Shown piece by piece: positions 3,446 to 64,000 of a DNA stretch of 64,000 nucleotides. The position numbers and the translations under genes are program-made. Within the stretch, counting starts at the first letter, position 1, and each line of letters starts with the position of its first letter. The notes under the pieces were generated by a model. It was not told the DNA's origin, did no database searches, and worked only from the letters and a program-made list of their open reading frames with translations. The DNA comes from Planctomycetota bacterium (lineage in GTDB: Bacteria > Planctomycetota > PLA2 > JAEUHO01): contig CBDCTJ010000007.1 of the NCBI GenBank assembly GCA_965222115.1, forward strand, positions 2,752,001 to 2,816,000, given 5' to 3'.

Positions 3446-3566
3446 CCCCGCCACCCGTCACCCGTTCCCCGAATCCCGTCACCCGGACTCAAGTTTGGGA
3501 CTCCGAAGGCGACTCACGCCAGTTCGTGGACGTGGACGTGGACGTGGACGTGGACGTTGACGTGAA
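3446..3566 (+). repeat. Heptamer array + CTCAAG followed by a (CGTGGA)n hexamer array
   Basis: Six NCCCGNN units at 3446-3487, ctcaag at 3488-3493, then 5 perfect + 2 variant CGTGGA units at 3525-3566. Confidence 0.85.
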
Positions 3567-61731: not shown

Positions 61732-62070
61732 TCACTCATCATCCGTTGCCCACACCACATCAAGCGCCCCCATTCGCCGCAGCAGCCCGACCAATCGGCG
61801 ATGCGTTTCACGGGTTTCGAGCGCAATGGAAACGACGCGTCCGACAGCCTTTGCATGGGGCACGAACTCCCAATCGGTGTCTTCACTCAATATCCACGCG
61901 TACTCATCGGGATCGATTTCCTCAAACCCGTCCCATTGCAGCTCCGTTTCGCCATCCACCAACCGGCGAAACCACGCGTTCAATGCATCCTGCGCTTCGA
62001 TGGCATGGGCATCGTCGCGGAAGGTGCCGCGGATGCCGGTGACGGGGGCCGCTTCATTCATGTCGAGCAT
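61732..62070 (-). CDS. Acidic hypothetical protein
   Basis: ATG overlaps the comF stop (TAATG); 112 aa starting MLDMNEAAPV. Confidence 0.55.
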   Translation of the reverse strand: MLDMNEAAPVTGIRGTFRDDAHAIEAQDALNAWFRRLVDGETELQWDGFEEIDPDEYAWILSEDTDWEFVPHAKAVGRVVSIALETRETHRRLVGLLRRMGALDVVWATDDE

Positions 62071-62864
62071 TATGCACCACGTTCTGTGCGACAGGCCACG
62101 ACAACGACCACGCGAAGTGCGCCCGCGCGAAGCAGTGCATAGGAGACTGCGCGGGCGGTGGCGCCGCTCGTGATCACGTCGTCGACCAGCATGACGCATC
62201 GCCCCGCTACCGCACGGCGCTTCGCGACAAAGCCACCGCGTGGTCCCAGTCGTCGCTGGGCTTTGGAACGTGTCGTTTGAGGCGGGCCGTGGACGCGTCG
62301 CTTTACCGCTCGCGAGGCAACTGGAATGTGCAAACGCCGACCAAGTGCCTTGGCCAGTAACGCGGATTGGTTGTAGCCCCGTTCTCGCATTCGCTTCGCG
62401 GATAGTGGAACTGGAACCAACAGGTCGCCGGGAATGTCGGCGGCTCGAAGCGCCTCCTCCATCGGACCCGCAAGCATCTCAGCAAGATGGCAGCCGTCTC
62501 GAAACTTGAGCCCAAGGACAAGTTGTCGTGCGCTTTCTCGATACGAGTAGGGCGCAATCACTCCGGCAATCACGTCTCGCCGACGCGGCACACGCGACCC
62601 GATCGCATCGAGCTCTGCTGAGGGTCCCAAACATTGCGGGCAGGACTCAAGCGACACACGCGGCCCCACACTCCTCCCGCAACGTCGACATCGCGGTCGC
62701 CACATAGGCAGTGCCGCCATGCAGCCATCGCAGAATCGACGATCAGGTGCATCCCACGTGTCCACGCCGCAGAGCACACAGCGAGGTGGAAACCACGTGT
62801 CGATGAGGCCGGTGATGAACGCTTTGATCACAGGCCTACTACGAACCAAACCTCGATTGGCCAC
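62070..62864 (-). CDS. comF: ComF family protein (zinc ribbon + phosphoribosyltransferase)
   Basis: FPPRCVLC, CDGC, CRRCG, CPQC, VPVPLS..RERGYNQS, LVDDVITSGAT. Confidence 0.9.
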   Translation of the reverse strand: MANRGLVRSRPVIKAFITGLIDTWFPPRCVLCGVDTWDAPDRRFCDGCMAALPMWRPRCRRCGRSVGPRVSLESCPQCLGPSAELDAIGSRVPRRRDVIAGVIAPYSYRESARQLVLGLKFRDGCHLAEMLAGPMEEALRAADIPGDLLVPVPLSAKRMRERGYNQSALLAKALGRRLHIPVASRAVKRRVHGPPQTTRSKAQRRLGPRGGFVAKRRAVAGRCVMLVDDVITSGATARAVSYALLRAGALRVVVVVACRTERGA

Positions 62865-62906
62865 ATCTCGTTGCTAGCGGCAGGTTGTTCAAGTTGTCCG
62901 TACGCC

Positions 62907-63029
62907 GTTTCCCCTTACCCCGTATACCCGTCCCCCGAACTCAAGGATGAATGTTCAACGATCGATTCTTCCAGCGTTTAAGACGTGGACGTGGACGTGG
63001 ACGTGGACGTGGACGTGGACGTGGACGTG
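62907..63029 (+). repeat. Heptamer/CTCAAG module followed by (CGTGGA)7
   Basis: ccccgta tacccgt cccccgaa ctcaag gatgaatgttcaacgatcgattc; seven CGTGGA units at 62984-63025. Confidence 0.85.
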
Positions 63030-63072
63030 TTGGTCCAGTCTGCGCATGTCTTCGATACACGATGCCTCTAGA

Positions 63073-63391
63073 TTGGTCCTTCGATGCGCACTACGCGGAT
63101 CAAAGATCCGCTAGTGCTTACTCAGGATCTCCGGTCAATGGGCATAGCCCATTGACCTCCGACACGCCCCTTGAGGTTGAGATATCGCGTGTTGTAGGAA
63201 TCGACCCGTACACACCTCAGAAATTGAGACTATCTCAGGGGACCGCGCCTAAGGGAGACTCCATCTAGATTAGGCGTCAACATCGAATGGCGCGTGTCGG
63301 AGACAAGGAGGGTCGAAGACCCGACGTAGTCGGAGATCCTGAGTAAGTCCAAGCGGACCAAGGGTCCGCGCTGGACGCATCGAAGGGCCGA
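63073..63391 (+). ncRNA. Highly structured multi-branch non-coding element (RNA or ssDNA), unassigned
   Basis: 16-bp closing stem 63073-88/63376-91, perfect 17-bp stem 63117-33/63331-47, 11-bp stem 63157-67/63292-302, hairpins 63089-116, 63133-157, 63310-322, 63347-376. Confidence 0.65.
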
Positions 63392-63448
63392 ACTACGAAT
63401 TTCGTAAGTCACACGGAGACGATGAACTTGATACGTCAAATGGGCTAG

Positions 63449-64000
63449 TCAGACGTCATGAACCGTCCCAAGCGCCACAGCGCGTGTCGCGCCGGTTGCA
63501 CTCGGTAAGTTTCCGGGAAGCCCCAGGAGCCGTCGATCAGCAAGCAACGCAAAGCCCACGGCCTCTTTGGCGTCAATCCACGCATCGGGAAGCGTTCGAG
63601 TTTCGATGTCGAGCGCGCTCAGCTTCTCACTGATGCACTCCATCAGATAGCCATTGCGACAACCCCCACCGCTAAACAGAAGTCTTCTGAGTTCCTGATG
63701 ACGAATGAGCACATGGTTCTCAATGCCATCGCGGAGAACTTCGGCTGTGAATTCGGTTGCAGTCGCCACTAGAACTTCGGGAGGCACGTCAGGATGCTTA
63801 CGCTTGATTGCCTGAACGAGTGCGGGGCCAAACGTGTCGTAGCCCGCGCTCTTGGGCGGCGACGCAGCAATCCACTTCGCCCGCGACGTATAGAGTGACA
63901 ACAAGACATCTTCCGAAACTGTTGTTGCGCGTGCTATGGCGCCGTCTTTATCAAATCGAGGATGCCCTTCCGTATCGGATGCGAATGCGTCGATCAGTGC
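63449..64000 (-). CDS. anmK: Anhydro-N-acetylmuramic acid kinase (3' part; runs off window)
   Basis: Frame open to window end: ALIDAF, FDKDGAIA, PPKSAG, ATATEFTA, SGGGCRN, DAKEAVGFALLA, GNLPSATGA. Confidence 0.9.
   Translation of the reverse strand, partial: ALIDAFASDTEGHPRFDKDGAIARATTVSEDVLLSLYTSRAKWIAASPPKSAGYDTFGPALVQAIKRKHPDVPPEVLVATATEFTAEVLRDGIENHVLIRHQELRRLLFSGGGCRNGYLMECISEKLSALDIETRTLPDAWIDAKEAVGFALLADRRLLGLPGNLPSATGATRAVALGTVHDV

What the first reader, a model, noticed from the sequence alone, without database searches (positions are those of the whole stretch)
63073..63391. About 320-nt element folding into a four-way junction with long perfect stems and triloop hairpins
Seen: P1 63073-88/63376-91 (16 bp, G-T wobbles), P2 cacta-c-gcggatc-AAA-gatccgc-tagtg, P3 63117-33/63331-47 (17 bp perfect) and P4 gtcca-a-gcggacc-AAG-ggtccgc-gc-tggac meet with essentially no unpaired linker. 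P2 and P4 are near-twin arms. P3 leads to a second junction with ggtcaatgggc-ATA-gcccattgacc, ctccgacacgc/gcgtgtcggag, gggtc-GAA-gaccc and gac-GTA-gtc, and an inner domain with tgaggt/acctca, tgaga-CTA-tctca and cgcctaa/ttaggcg. Most loops are 3 nt, which is more typical of ssDNA hairpins than of tetraloop-rich RNAs. It starts about 45 nt after the H-X repeat module and matches no RNase P, tmRNA, SRP or 6S hallmark that I can see. Inference: an undescribed ncRNA or ssDNA-folding element (Holliday-junction mimic, HUH/relaxase substrate or RT template), possibly cargo of the repeat system.
Basis: partly seen in the sequence, partly recalled or inferred. Interest (0 to 1): 0.78.

Follow-up and report, generated by a model that had tools for sequence, protein, structure and literature searches.

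The report
Inverted pair of widespread hairpin repeats
The 320-base "four-way junction" is two back-to-back copies of a small DNA hairpin repeat that occurs about 45 times in this planctomycete genome and, with the same odd bulges, in at least seven other bacterial groups, where it often sits beside a tiny nuclease gene.

Summary
The fold is real (z about -14 as RNA, -12 as DNA) and matches no Rfam family. It is not a unique RNA gene.

- **Anatomy.** The element is an inverted pair of a roughly 105-nt "arm". The genome holds 45 arms: 37 solo and 4 inverted pairs. P1 and P3 are the conserved half-sites of one arm pairing with those of the other. P2 and P4 are each arm's own variable hairpin.
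- **Conserved unit.** The structure kept in evolution is the single-arm hairpin: CC-TT(C)-GATGCGC, a variable hairpin, then GCTTA(C)TCAGG, with fixed bulges and G.T and C.T mismatches.
- **Distribution.** This hairpin covaries strongly across Acidobacteriota, Bacteroidota, Planctomycetota, Omnitrophota, Gemmatimonadota and others.
- **Neighbours elsewhere.** It abuts tRNA CCA ends, interrupts one RNase P RNA gene, and lies just upstream of small GIY-YIG nuclease genes (31 of 139 loci, 7 protein clusters).
- **This genome.** No such nuclease gene was found here.
- **Resemblance.** The core equals the E. coli REP half-sites apart from the bulges.

Best reading: a REPIN-like dimer of a REP/Ssn-type single-strand DNA hairpin repeat, a new variant of a known kind. 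Earlier work in this scan found related GIY-YIG/hairpin systems on other DNA, but not this motif.

The parts
63073..63391 (.). Whole element: an inverted dimer of two arms around a poorly conserved centre
   Evidence: Fold z -14 (RNA) and -12 (DNA). Inverted repeat 63069-63133 / 63331-63395, 65 nt, 77% complementary. A full-length relative lies at G000:C7:2420889-2421202, 69% identical.
63060..63167 (+). Left arm: 5' flank, core hairpin, second hairpin, then TCCGACACGC
   Evidence: nhmmer hit C7:2815060-2815167, E 2e-27. First row of alignment A1.
63074..63132 (+). Left core hairpin (conserved bulged helix plus P2). The same motif is found across phyla.
   Evidence: Covariance model R2: 63.9 bits, E 1.5e-17. 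Covariation counts.
63133..63157 (+). Left second hairpin, ggtcaatgggc-ATA-gcccattgacc. Its sequence varies between copies while the pairing is kept.
   Evidence: In RNAalifold 10-14 of 33 arms changed both sides of these pairs.
63168..63291 (.). Centre: filler with local hairpins, weakly conserved
   Evidence: The alignment with the C7:2420k copy shows little conservation here. Pfam on the two ORFs that overlap the element gave one weak, sub-threshold hit: EBNA2_Core, E 0.053, 13.2 bits against a 35-bit cut-off.
63292..63405 (-). Right arm. Its second hairpin is the gggtc-GAA-gaccc type.
   Evidence: nhmmer hit C7:2815405-2815292, E 1.5e-18. It starts 44 nt after the anmK stop codon, on the same strand as that gene.
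63332..63390 (-). Right core hairpin (conserved bulged helix plus P4)
   Evidence: R2: 58.9 bits, E 5.6e-16.
62985..63026 (-).
   Evidence: It is one of 41 such arrays in the genome. By my reading, about 12 of them are directly preceded by an arm.
62885..62984 (-). Conserved 'tail' module that follows hexamer arrays (..GAATCGATC..CTTGAGT.. then G-rich GGGTNAC-like repeats), here upstream of the comF-like gene
   Evidence: Compared by eye with the tails printed. The boundaries are approximate.
63449..64000 (-). 3' part of anmK, the gene upstream of the element on the - strand
   Evidence: Pfam AnmK, E 2.5e-29.
62070..62864 (-). comF-like gene (double zinc ribbon plus phosphoribosyltransferase), downstream on the - strand
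   Evidence: Pfam DZR_2 E 3.1e-10 and Pribosyltran E 3e-6.

Best explanation
The element is a REPIN-like inverted dimer of a small palindromic DNA repeat (the 'arm').

**Working unit (shown).** The unit is the single arm, not the four-way junction. When the DNA is single-stranded, each arm folds into an imperfect hairpin with these parts:
- a lower stem, NNCC/GGNN;
- a conserved irregular helix, TT(C)GATGCGC / GCTTA(C)TCAGG, with a TC bulge, a C bulge, a G.T pair and a C.T mismatch that never vary;
- a freely varying upper hairpin.

**Mechanism (inferred).** The fixed asymmetric irregularities give the hairpin a strand and an orientation. They are the kind of feature read by a structure-specific single-strand DNA enzyme. 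In other phyla the candidate is the small single-domain GIY-YIG nuclease encoded right next to the hairpin, as in the Ssn/NTS systems. Copies spread and are kept alike through that enzyme or through replication-fork processes.

**Dimer (shown).** Pairs of copies facing each other are the commonest arrangement. In such a pair the conserved half-sites of the two arms are complementary. Any single strand of it, DNA or RNA, therefore computes as a very stable four-way junction, which is a by-product of the pairing.

**This genome.** No small GIY-YIG gene was found (shown). The 45 arms are therefore orphans or are served by another enzyme (inferred).

**Possible side effect (not shown).** If the anmK-comF spacer is transcribed, the structure could affect the stability or processing of that RNA.
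For: **A repeat, not a gene**
- There are 45 arms in the genome: 4 inverted pairs and 37 solo.
- None was found in 39 other genomes of the order, apart from one marginal hit.
- 2 of 150 other Planctomycetota genomes sampled have it.

**The same core in many phyla**
- The exact pattern occurs in 42 stretches of species-representative genomes, against about 3.5 expected by my own arithmetic, and in 107 metagenome stretches.

**The single-arm hairpin is what selection keeps**
- On 68 sequences, 86.7% of cells pair against 29-40% with slid partners.
- The covariation score is 0.372 against 0.07-0.09, and 0 of 500 shuffles reach it.
- Pair 4-58 is CG 35 / UA 26. Pair 12-51 is UA 54 / CG 13. Pair 16-47 is CG 53 / UA 12. 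The G.U is 68 of 68.
- Within the genome, both hairpins show compensatory changes.

**Enzyme link elsewhere**
- A small GIY-YIG ORF lies within 1.5 kb in 31 of 139 distinct loci.
- These ORFs fall into 7 clusters at 60% identity, and the hairpin usually sits 7-80 nt upstream of the start codon on the antisense strand.
- Pfam GIY-YIG scores are E 1e-8 to 6e-21.
- Ssn nucleases are small GIY-YIG proteins that cut only single-stranded DNA next to their own flanking hairpin repeats (PMC11893778, sections read).

**Behaviour like inserted DNA**
- One copy lies inside an RNase P RNA gene.
- One copy abuts the CCA end of a tRNA-Val gene and one follows a duplicated tRNA-Ser 3' end. In Acidobacteriota, variant copies directly follow the tRNA-Glu CCA end, by my reading of the sequences.

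**The dimer is typical**
- Of 61 neighbouring copy pairs in other organisms, 33 are convergent as here, 23 tandem and 5 divergent.

**REP-like placement**
- 37 of 45 arms are intergenic by a crude gene caller.
- 20 arms lie within 120 nt downstream of a co-directional gene end, against 6 near an opposite-strand gene.

**Strand bias with replication**
- The top strand of the arm lies on the G-poor strand in 30 of 45 arms (p 0.036) and in 26 of 35 solo arms (p 0.006). Only 41% of genes lie there.

**Shared core with E. coli REP**
- The half-sites CCT.GATGCG / CTTA.TCAGG, including the G.T and C.T positions, equal those of an E. coli K-12 REP copy.
Against: - No small GIY-YIG gene exists in this assembly, which is 90% complete. 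PF01541 hits only a 608-aa frame, which I take to be UvrC by recall, and tblastn and a profile search found nothing.
- The two Y1 transposase genes are far from any arm.
- The hairpin does not fit the published Ssn-related motif: 0 of 45 arms and 0 of 141 instances elsewhere.
- Model R2 does not find the E. coli REPs.
- The GIY-YIG link is partly one orthologous acidobacterial locus: 22 of 34 ORFs fall in one cluster and 30 of the nearby tRNAs are tRNA-Glu. 86 of 139 loci have neither a nuclease nor a tRNA nearby.
- No insertion polymorphism or empty site was seen.
- The invariant G.T (a G.U in RNA) and the co-orientation with upstream genes would also fit an RNA role.
- Arms near duplicated cassettes are not independent, so the strand-bias p-values are overstated.
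- No binding or cleavage was tested.
Confidence: 0.6

Rival explanations
1. The arms act mainly as RNA. Transcribed in the 3' untranslated regions of upstream genes, the hairpins, and in dimers the long duplexes, protect mRNA 3' ends, stop read-through, or provide RNase III/E processing sites between anmK and comF.
For: - The RNA fold is very stable.
- The invariant G.U is tolerated only on the 'top' strand.
- 20 arms lie within 120 nt downstream of a co-directional gene end, against 6 near an opposite-strand gene.
- REPs are thought by others to work partly this way (Di Nocera 2013, abstract read).
Against: - No U-tract terminators or promoter-like sites were found in 62700-63600.
- Copies occur in both orientations and as inverted pairs.
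- In other phyla the canonical copies lie antisense to the adjacent tRNA and GIY-YIG genes: 40 of 47 and 37 of 39.
- The family is absent from close relatives, which is unlike a housekeeping RNA signal.
- No RNA data exist for this organism.
Confidence: 0.2
2. A passive palindromic repeat. The units spread by recombination, template switching and segmental duplication near the replication terminus. The hairpins are kept by intrastrand gene conversion, with no dedicated enzyme and no function.
For: - No cognate enzyme gene is present in this genome.
- Arms are joined in a mosaic way to other repeat modules: hexamers, tails and 'type C' tails.
- 30 of 31 arms on contig C7 lie at 2.27-3.07 Mb, around the GC-skew maximum at about 2.70-2.75 Mb.
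Against: - The same 21 core bases, with invariant bulges and mismatches, recur in at least seven phylum-level groups. Drift and conversion alone would not hold that.
- Mismatches should be removed, not fixed, by intrastrand conversion.
Confidence: 0.12
3. A classical MITE: terminal inverted repeats recognised as double-stranded DNA by a DDE transposase encoded elsewhere.
For: A 65-nt terminal inverted repeat, a size of about 320 bp, and multiple copies.
Against: - 37 of 45 arms are solo.
- No direct repeat flanks the element (flanks read).
- No longer element with these ends and a transposase gene was found.
- The compensatory changes inside the 'TIR' point to a folded single strand.
Confidence: 0.05
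4. A single structured non-coding RNA gene whose four-way junction is the functional fold.
For: Extreme fold stability and no known family.
Against: - The junction helices P1 and P3 cannot form in 37 of the 45 copies of their sequences.
- The centre is not conserved.
- There are no homologues in relatives.
Confidence: 0.03

Closest known systems
Enterobacterial REP / PU sequences, their BIME clusters and REPIN doublets, moved by RAYT (Y1 HUH) transposases (Di Nocera et al. 2013, PMC3733652, abstract and passages read; REPIN and RAYT details recalled)
   Same: - Short imperfect extragenic palindromes in many copies.
- Mostly downstream of genes and between convergent genes.
- Often paired in opposite orientation so that they fold into larger structures.
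- The core half-sites CCT.GATGCG / CTTA.TCAGG, with the G.T and C.T mismatches, are letter for letter those of the E. coli K-12 copy at L255:5565-5600.
   Different: - No GTAG/CTAC or CGTC tag next to the hairpin (alignments).
- Two fixed bulges that E. coli REPs lack.
- A long variable upper hairpin and a second hairpin.
- Model R2 does not detect the E. coli REPs.
- No RAYT gene lies beside any arm.
Ssn nucleases with NTS/SRM hairpin repeats (Chenal et al., Nat Commun 2025, PMC11893778; abstract and sections 5 part 1, 10, 12 and 17 read)
   Same: - Hairpin repeats with an oriented, conserved non-palindromic part.
- Dispersed in tens to hundreds of copies.
- They flank a roughly 95-110-aa single-domain GIY-YIG gene in several phyla.
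- Some repeat-rich genomes lack the gene (19% in that paper).
   Different: - The hairpin does not fit the SRM search sequence: 0 of 45 and 0 of 141.
- The best solved relatives of the neighbouring nuclease are UPF0213 proteins 1ZG2 and 1YWL. Whether it belongs to the Ssn clade (cd10448) could not be tested.
- This genome has no such gene.
- No biochemistry was done.
Rickettsia palindromic elements and other palindromic inserts that land inside genes for proteins and stable RNAs
   Same: A self-contained hairpin that can sit inside a structured RNA gene. One copy interrupts an RNase P RNA gene.
   Different: RPEs are longer, specific to their lineage, and mostly lie in frame within protein-coding genes. 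Here 37 of 45 copies are intergenic.
Integron attC sites (recalled)
   Same: Single-strand DNA hairpins in which conserved paired boxes carry extrahelical bases that set the strand choice, topped by a variable terminal structure. Small gene cassettes lie nearby.
   Different: No integron integrase lies beside the arrays (one search shows tyrosine recombinases elsewhere). Arms do not mark every cassette boundary. The attC core was not compared because no attC model was available.

Membership tests
REP / BIME / REPIN | Short imperfect palindrome, many copies, mainly extragenic | tested here: met
   45 arms. 37 of 45 are intergenic by a crude codon-usage gene caller.
REP / BIME / REPIN | Unpaired GTAG or CGTC tag at one end of the hairpin | tested here: not met
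   No conserved GTAG/CTAC or CGTC stands next to the core in A1 or A4. This was inspection only. CGTC occurs in the adjacent (GTCCAC)n arrays of some arms.
REP / BIME / REPIN | Copies flank a RAYT (Y1 transposase) gene | tested here: not met
   The Y1_Tnp genes are at C7:1.41 Mb and 1.07 Mb. No arm lies there, and the flanks carry a different repeat.
REP / BIME / REPIN | Inverted doublets as a recurrent unit | tested here: met
   4 inverted pairs in this genome. 33 of 61 neighbouring pairs elsewhere are convergent.
REP / BIME / REPIN | Sequence and structure likeness to E. coli REP | tested here: inconclusive
   The half-sites are identical, 9+9 nt, once the bulges are removed. Model R2 nevertheless finds no E. 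coli REP at E up to 10 in 50 kb.
Ssn / SRM system | Repeats flank a small single-domain GIY-YIG gene | tested here: inconclusive
   Met in other phyla: 31 of 139 loci, 7 protein clusters. Not met in this genome.
Ssn / SRM system | The repeat fits the published SRM degenerate sequence | tested here: not met
   0 of 45 arms and 0 of 141 instances elsewhere. The whole genome has 19 matches against 16 in its reversed sequence.
Ssn / SRM system | The nuclease belongs to the cd10448 clade and cuts only single-stranded DNA beside the hairpin | not testable with these tools
   No CDD or tree of the superfamily was available. The nearest solved chains are UPF0213 proteins.
MITE | Terminal inverted repeats with target-site duplication, and a matching autonomous IS | tested here: not met
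   The TIR is present. There is no flanking direct repeat, no IS with these ends, and solo arms predominate.
Any Rfam RNA family | A match at the curated gathering score | tested here: not met
   0 matches in the window. Across 12 loci from other phyla, only tRNAs and one RNase P RNA matched.

The most novel reading that the evidence does not exclude
The bulged hairpin is the DNA recognition module of an undescribed, cross-phylum mobile system. Its enzyme is a UPF0213/SLX1-like small GIY-YIG nuclease, a sister of Ssn. The system docks on the CCA ends of tRNA genes and can enter other stable-RNA genes. Its core is the same as that of enterobacterial REPs. That would mean that RAYT-linked and GIY-YIG-linked palindromic repeats either descend from one ancient hairpin or exploit the same conserved host factor. 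In this planctomycete the hairpin has outlived its nuclease, multiplied around the replication terminus, and fused with the boundaries of four-helix-bundle gene cassettes.
Probability: 0.2. Interest if true: 0.75.

Novelty: new variant of a known kind. Interest (0 to 1): 0.45.

Why it matters
**For annotation.** The result removes a false candidate for a new large ncRNA. It shows how two inverted repeat copies can imitate an elaborate junction.

**For biology.** It defines a hairpin family with an unusually well conserved, asymmetric core that is shared across distant phyla. The family is linked to tiny GIY-YIG nucleases and to the ends of tRNA genes, and its core matches the classical E. coli REP.

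**If the nuclease link holds.** It would add a new enzyme/site pair to the recently described site-specific single-strand DNA nucleases, which are of practical interest. It would also bear on the old question of what makes REP-type sequences spread and stay uniform.

Tried and rejected
**Expression data**
- No RNA holder is listed among the public runs. The four holders are contigs from one study.
- Laying those contigs showed only other arm copies and assembly breaks at the hexamer array. No empty site or joint was informative.

**Known RNA families and motifs**
- Rfam in both modes: nothing.
- Hammerhead, k-turn and sarcin-ricin (AGUA/GAA) readings of the reverse-complement core were rejected. 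The registers do not fit, and the U of AGUA covaries as a Watson-Crick pair.
- The 11-nt identity of the reverse-complement core to Thermus thermophilus 23S helix 13 (PMC4227780, passage read) is probably chance. This genome's own helix 13 reads differently.

**Known repeat definitions and collections**
- The published SRM pattern: no match.
- The exact pattern in viral contigs: 0.
- BLAST of the element against 60 relatives: only short chance matches, best E 0.007.

**Neighbouring genes**
- Four-helix-bundle genes beside the motif in other phyla: 0 found by phmmer with two of this genome's proteins as queries. Distant members could have been missed.
- An integron attC reading was considered but not tested, because no model was available.
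- Promoter and terminator scans: none.

**Literature**
- Five searches found no description of this motif. Supplementary files of the Ssn paper, which list the SRM variants, could not be seen and may hold it.

**Slips corrected**
- One search failed on a file-format flag and was rerun.
- Six rows of alignment A3 had wrong coordinates. The alignment was remade as A4.

Full report
**Observation.** P1 has 16 pairs with two G.T. P3 has 17 perfect pairs. P2 and P4 are twin triloop hairpins, and the inner hairpins are also there. The minimum-energy fold reproduces them. As RNA on the + strand it scores -180.5 kcal/mol against -106.5 +/- 5.3 for 100 dinucleotide shuffles (z -13.99). The - strand gives z -12.31 and DNA parameters give z -12.19. 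No Rfam family reaches its gathering score anywhere in the window. A permissive scan of 62700-63700 gives only a chance mir-52 match at E 6.8.

**It is a repeat.** BLAST of the element against its own genome (4.55 Mb, 7 contigs, 90% complete) gave 72 matches. One is a full-length relative at C7:2420889-2421202, 69% identical. Most of the rest cover only the first or last 60-110 nt, on both strands. Three rounds of nhmmer converged on 45 copies of an 'arm' of about 105 nt (38, 44 and 45 hits).
- The arm reads TCGGCCC-TTCGATGCGCAC, then hairpin 1, then GTGCTTACTCAGGATCTCCG, then hairpin 2, then TCTCCGACACGC.
- Eight arms form four inverted pairs: this element, C7:2420873/2421218, C3:313945/314265, and a roughly 600-bp one on C1. 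The other 37 are solo.
- The element is therefore two arms facing each other (inverted repeat 63069-63133 / 63331-63395, 65 nt, 77% complementary) around about 120 nt of centre. That centre is poorly conserved in the other full-length copy.
- P1 and P3 are the conserved half-sites of one arm paired with those of the other. P2 and P4 are each arm's own hairpin 1.
- Folding the whole element is 43 kcal/mol (RNA) or 29 kcal/mol (DNA) better than folding the arms separately. This explains why the junction wins in any energy calculation.

**Which structure is conserved.** Solo arms cannot form P1 or P3, yet they keep the same sequences.
- RNAalifold on 33 arms predicts a hairpin within the arm. The lower helix CCCTTCGATGCG / GCTTACTCAGGG is nearly invariant. 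Hairpin 1 has compensatory changes (CG to UA in 4 arms, GC to AU in 5). Hairpin 2 changed both sides in 10-14 of 33 arms per pair.
- The family is lineage-restricted by similarity search. 60 relatives gave only short chance matches. A covariance model of the arm hit only this genome among 40 genomes of the order, apart from one marginal match at E 7.7e-4.

**The core is widespread.**
- The exact pattern TTCGATGCGC-N18-30-GCTTACTCAGG occurs in 42 stretches of the species-representative genome collection. My own arithmetic for 596 Gb, both strands and 13 gap lengths gives about 3.5 expected by chance. About four hits, which lie in coding sequence without a hairpin, look like that background.
- The pattern also occurs in 107 metagenome stretches.
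- Record titles name Acidobacteriota, several Bacteroidota lineages, Ignavibacteriales, Balneolaceae, Omnitrophota, Gemmatimonadaceae, Bdellovibrionales and another Planctomycetota MAG.
- Allowing two substitutions per half gave 186 distinct instances.
- On an alignment of 59 of these plus 9 arms of this genome, I named a 16-pair structure: lower stem, irregular core helix, and the first four pairs of the upper hairpin.
  - 86.7% of cells pair, against 29-40% when partners are slid.
  - The covariation score is 0.372 against 0.07-0.09, and 0 of 500 shuffles reach it.
  - Pair 4-58 is CG 35 / UA 26. Pair 12-51 is UA 54 / CG 13. Pair 16-47 is CG 53 / UA 12.
- The irregular positions never vary: a TC bulge, a C bulge, a G.T pair (68 of 68) and a C.T mismatch.
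- A model built from this alignment finds exactly the two arms in the window (E 1.5e-17 and 5.6e-16).
- Among 150 other Planctomycetota genomes it finds copies in only two. The distribution is patchy.

**Neighbours in other organisms.** Of 139 distinct loci, 31 have a small GIY-YIG ORF within 1.5 kb, 40 have a tRNA gene, 18 have both, and 86 have neither.
- The GIY-YIG ORFs are 62-186 aa as called, most of them about 91-109 aa. The six tested score E 1e-8 to 6e-21 against Pfam GIY-YIG. The nearest solved chains are UPF0213 proteins 1ZG2 and 1YWL.
- They fall into 7 clusters at 60% identity. 22 of the 34 belong to one acidobacterial cluster at a tRNA-Glu locus, so the counts are not independent.
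- In nearly every cluster a hairpin lies 7-80 nt upstream of the start codon, on the antisense strand. Some genes are bracketed by copies.
- In a Bdellovibrionales MAG the hairpin sits inside the RNase P RNA gene, just before the 3' strand of P4. It is an insertion relative to the Rfam consensus.
- In two Planctomycetota genomes a variant follows a tRNA CCA end, and CCA/TGG replaces the lower stem. One copy directly abuts the CCA of an intact tRNA-Val gene. The other follows the CCA of a duplicated tRNA-Ser 3' end. In Acidobacteriota a variant copy likewise directly follows the tRNA-Glu CCA end, by my reading of the sequences.
- Neighbouring copies are most often convergent, as in this element: 33 of 61, with 23 tandem and 5 divergent.
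- The exact pattern is not in the viral contig collection.

**Known systems of this kind.**
- Ssn proteins are roughly 94-aa single-domain GIY-YIG nucleases. They bind and cut only single-stranded DNA beside their own oriented hairpin repeats, which flank the gene and are scattered over the genome.
- 81% of repeat-rich genomes carry the gene.
- The architecture is the same here, but this hairpin does not fit their SRM search sequence: 0 of 45 arms and 0 of 141 instances elsewhere. The genome has 19 matches against 16 in its reversed sequence.
- The other close comparison is the classical REP. Two E. coli K-12 copies read from the record show that CCT.GATGCG / CTTA.TCAGG, including the G.T and C.T positions, is identical to the present core once its two bulges are removed.
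- There are three differences from E. coli REP: there is no CTAC/GTAG tag here, the new model does not detect the E. coli copies, and no arm lies near either Y1 transposase gene of this genome.
- Di Nocera et al. 2013 (abstract and passages read) describe REPs as mostly downstream of genes, between unidirectional and convergent ORFs, and often paired in opposite orientation. That description matches this family.

**This genome.**
- No small GIY-YIG gene was found. PF01541 hits only one 608-aa frame, which I take to be UvrC (a name from recall). tblastn with 34 neighbouring nucleases and a profile search of all frames gave nothing.
- By a crude codon-usage gene caller, 37 of 45 arms are intergenic. 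20 lie within 120 nt downstream of a co-directional gene end, against 6 near an opposite-strand gene. The right arm of this element starts 44 nt after the anmK stop codon.
- GC skew places the origin of contig C7 near 0.6 Mb and the terminus near 2.70-2.75 Mb. 30 of the 31 arms on C7 lie at 2.27-3.07 Mb.
- The arm's top strand is on the G-poor strand in 30 of 45 arms (p 0.036) and in 26 of 35 solo arms (p 0.006). Only 41% of genes lie there. Duplicated cassettes make these arms partly non-independent.
- About a dozen arms run directly into (GTCCAC)n arrays. 7 of the 18 four-helix-bundle (PF05635) genes have an arm within 600 nt.
- No promoter-like or terminator-like site lies in 62700-63600.
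- The ORFs that overlap the element have no family match above threshold.
- No RNA run holds this DNA.

**Verdict.** The fold is real but is a by-product. The element is a REPIN-like inverted dimer of a hairpin repeat belonging to a widespread, apparently undescribed family. The hairpin itself, its covariation, its distribution and its neighbours are shown. The reading that it works as a single-strand DNA site for a small GIY-YIG nuclease is an inference from neighbourhood and from the Ssn precedent. That reading is weakened by the absence of the gene here. An RNA role in 3' untranslated regions remains a serious rival.

**Earlier work in this scan.** Earlier notes describe related GIY-YIG/hairpin/tRNA systems in other genomes. 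Sequence look-ups found no earlier record of this motif.

Noticed in passing
window 3526-3555 and 62985-63026; L038 1080-2561; G000:C7:2.27-2.85 Mb: 41 (GTCCAC)n arrays (2-33 units) are each followed by a conserved tail and by G-rich GGGTNAC-like repeats that look able to form G-quadruplexes. They bound roughly 700-bp cassettes that carry 23S_rRNA_IVP four-helix-bundle genes in either orientation. All 18 such genes lie in one 0.6-Mb region. One array starts right after smpB and what I read as the 3' end of tmRNA (no tmRNA caller was run on that locus), and another starts after a tRNA 3' end.
   Followed up: partly
L120 6305-6769 (-), a Bdellovibrionales MAG: An RNase P RNA gene (225.9 bits) lacks P18 and carries the hairpin as an insertion of about 75 nt just before the 3' strand of P4.
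   Followed up: partly
L257 about 1273-1557 (G088) and L258 about 1501-1632 (G146): In one planctomycete genome a variant hairpin abuts the CCA end of tRNA-Val, so that CCA/TGG forms the lower stem. In another it follows a duplicated tRNA-Ser 3' end, which looks like the scar of an element integrated at the tRNA gene.
   Followed up: partly
G000:C7:1411691-1412035 and flanks; arms at C3:462543, C5:77563, C7:2094389, C7:3067325: The 153-aa Y1 (IS200/RAYT-like) transposase gene is flanked by a repeat (..CAGGGTTCG..CACCCTT.GCTATCAGCTT..CCTTCGG..). The same repeat forms the tail of four truncated 'type C' arms. A second repeat family, possibly RAYT-linked, is therefore spliced onto this one.
   Followed up: no
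G000:C7 whole contig: Cumulative GC skew has its minimum near 0.55-0.6 Mb and its maximum near 2.70-2.75 Mb. The arms, hexamer arrays and four-helix-bundle cassettes all crowd around the presumed terminus. None of the 45 arms lies in the first 2.09 Mb of C7.
   Followed up: partly
G000:C6 (48,116 bases): This contig has 39.7% G+C against 55-59% for the other six. It may be foreign DNA, a plasmid, or a binning error.
   Followed up: no
L255 5565-5669 (E. coli K-12) compared with window 63077-63130: The E. coli REP half-sites CCTGATGCG / CTTATCAGG, with their G.T and C.T mismatches, are the same letters as the core of this family minus its bulges.
   Followed up: partly
L131 5610-5928; L132 2452-2781: In Acidobacteriota and Bacteroidota MAGs the hairpin forms head-to-tail arrays with periods of about 90 and about 50 nt.
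   Followed up: no
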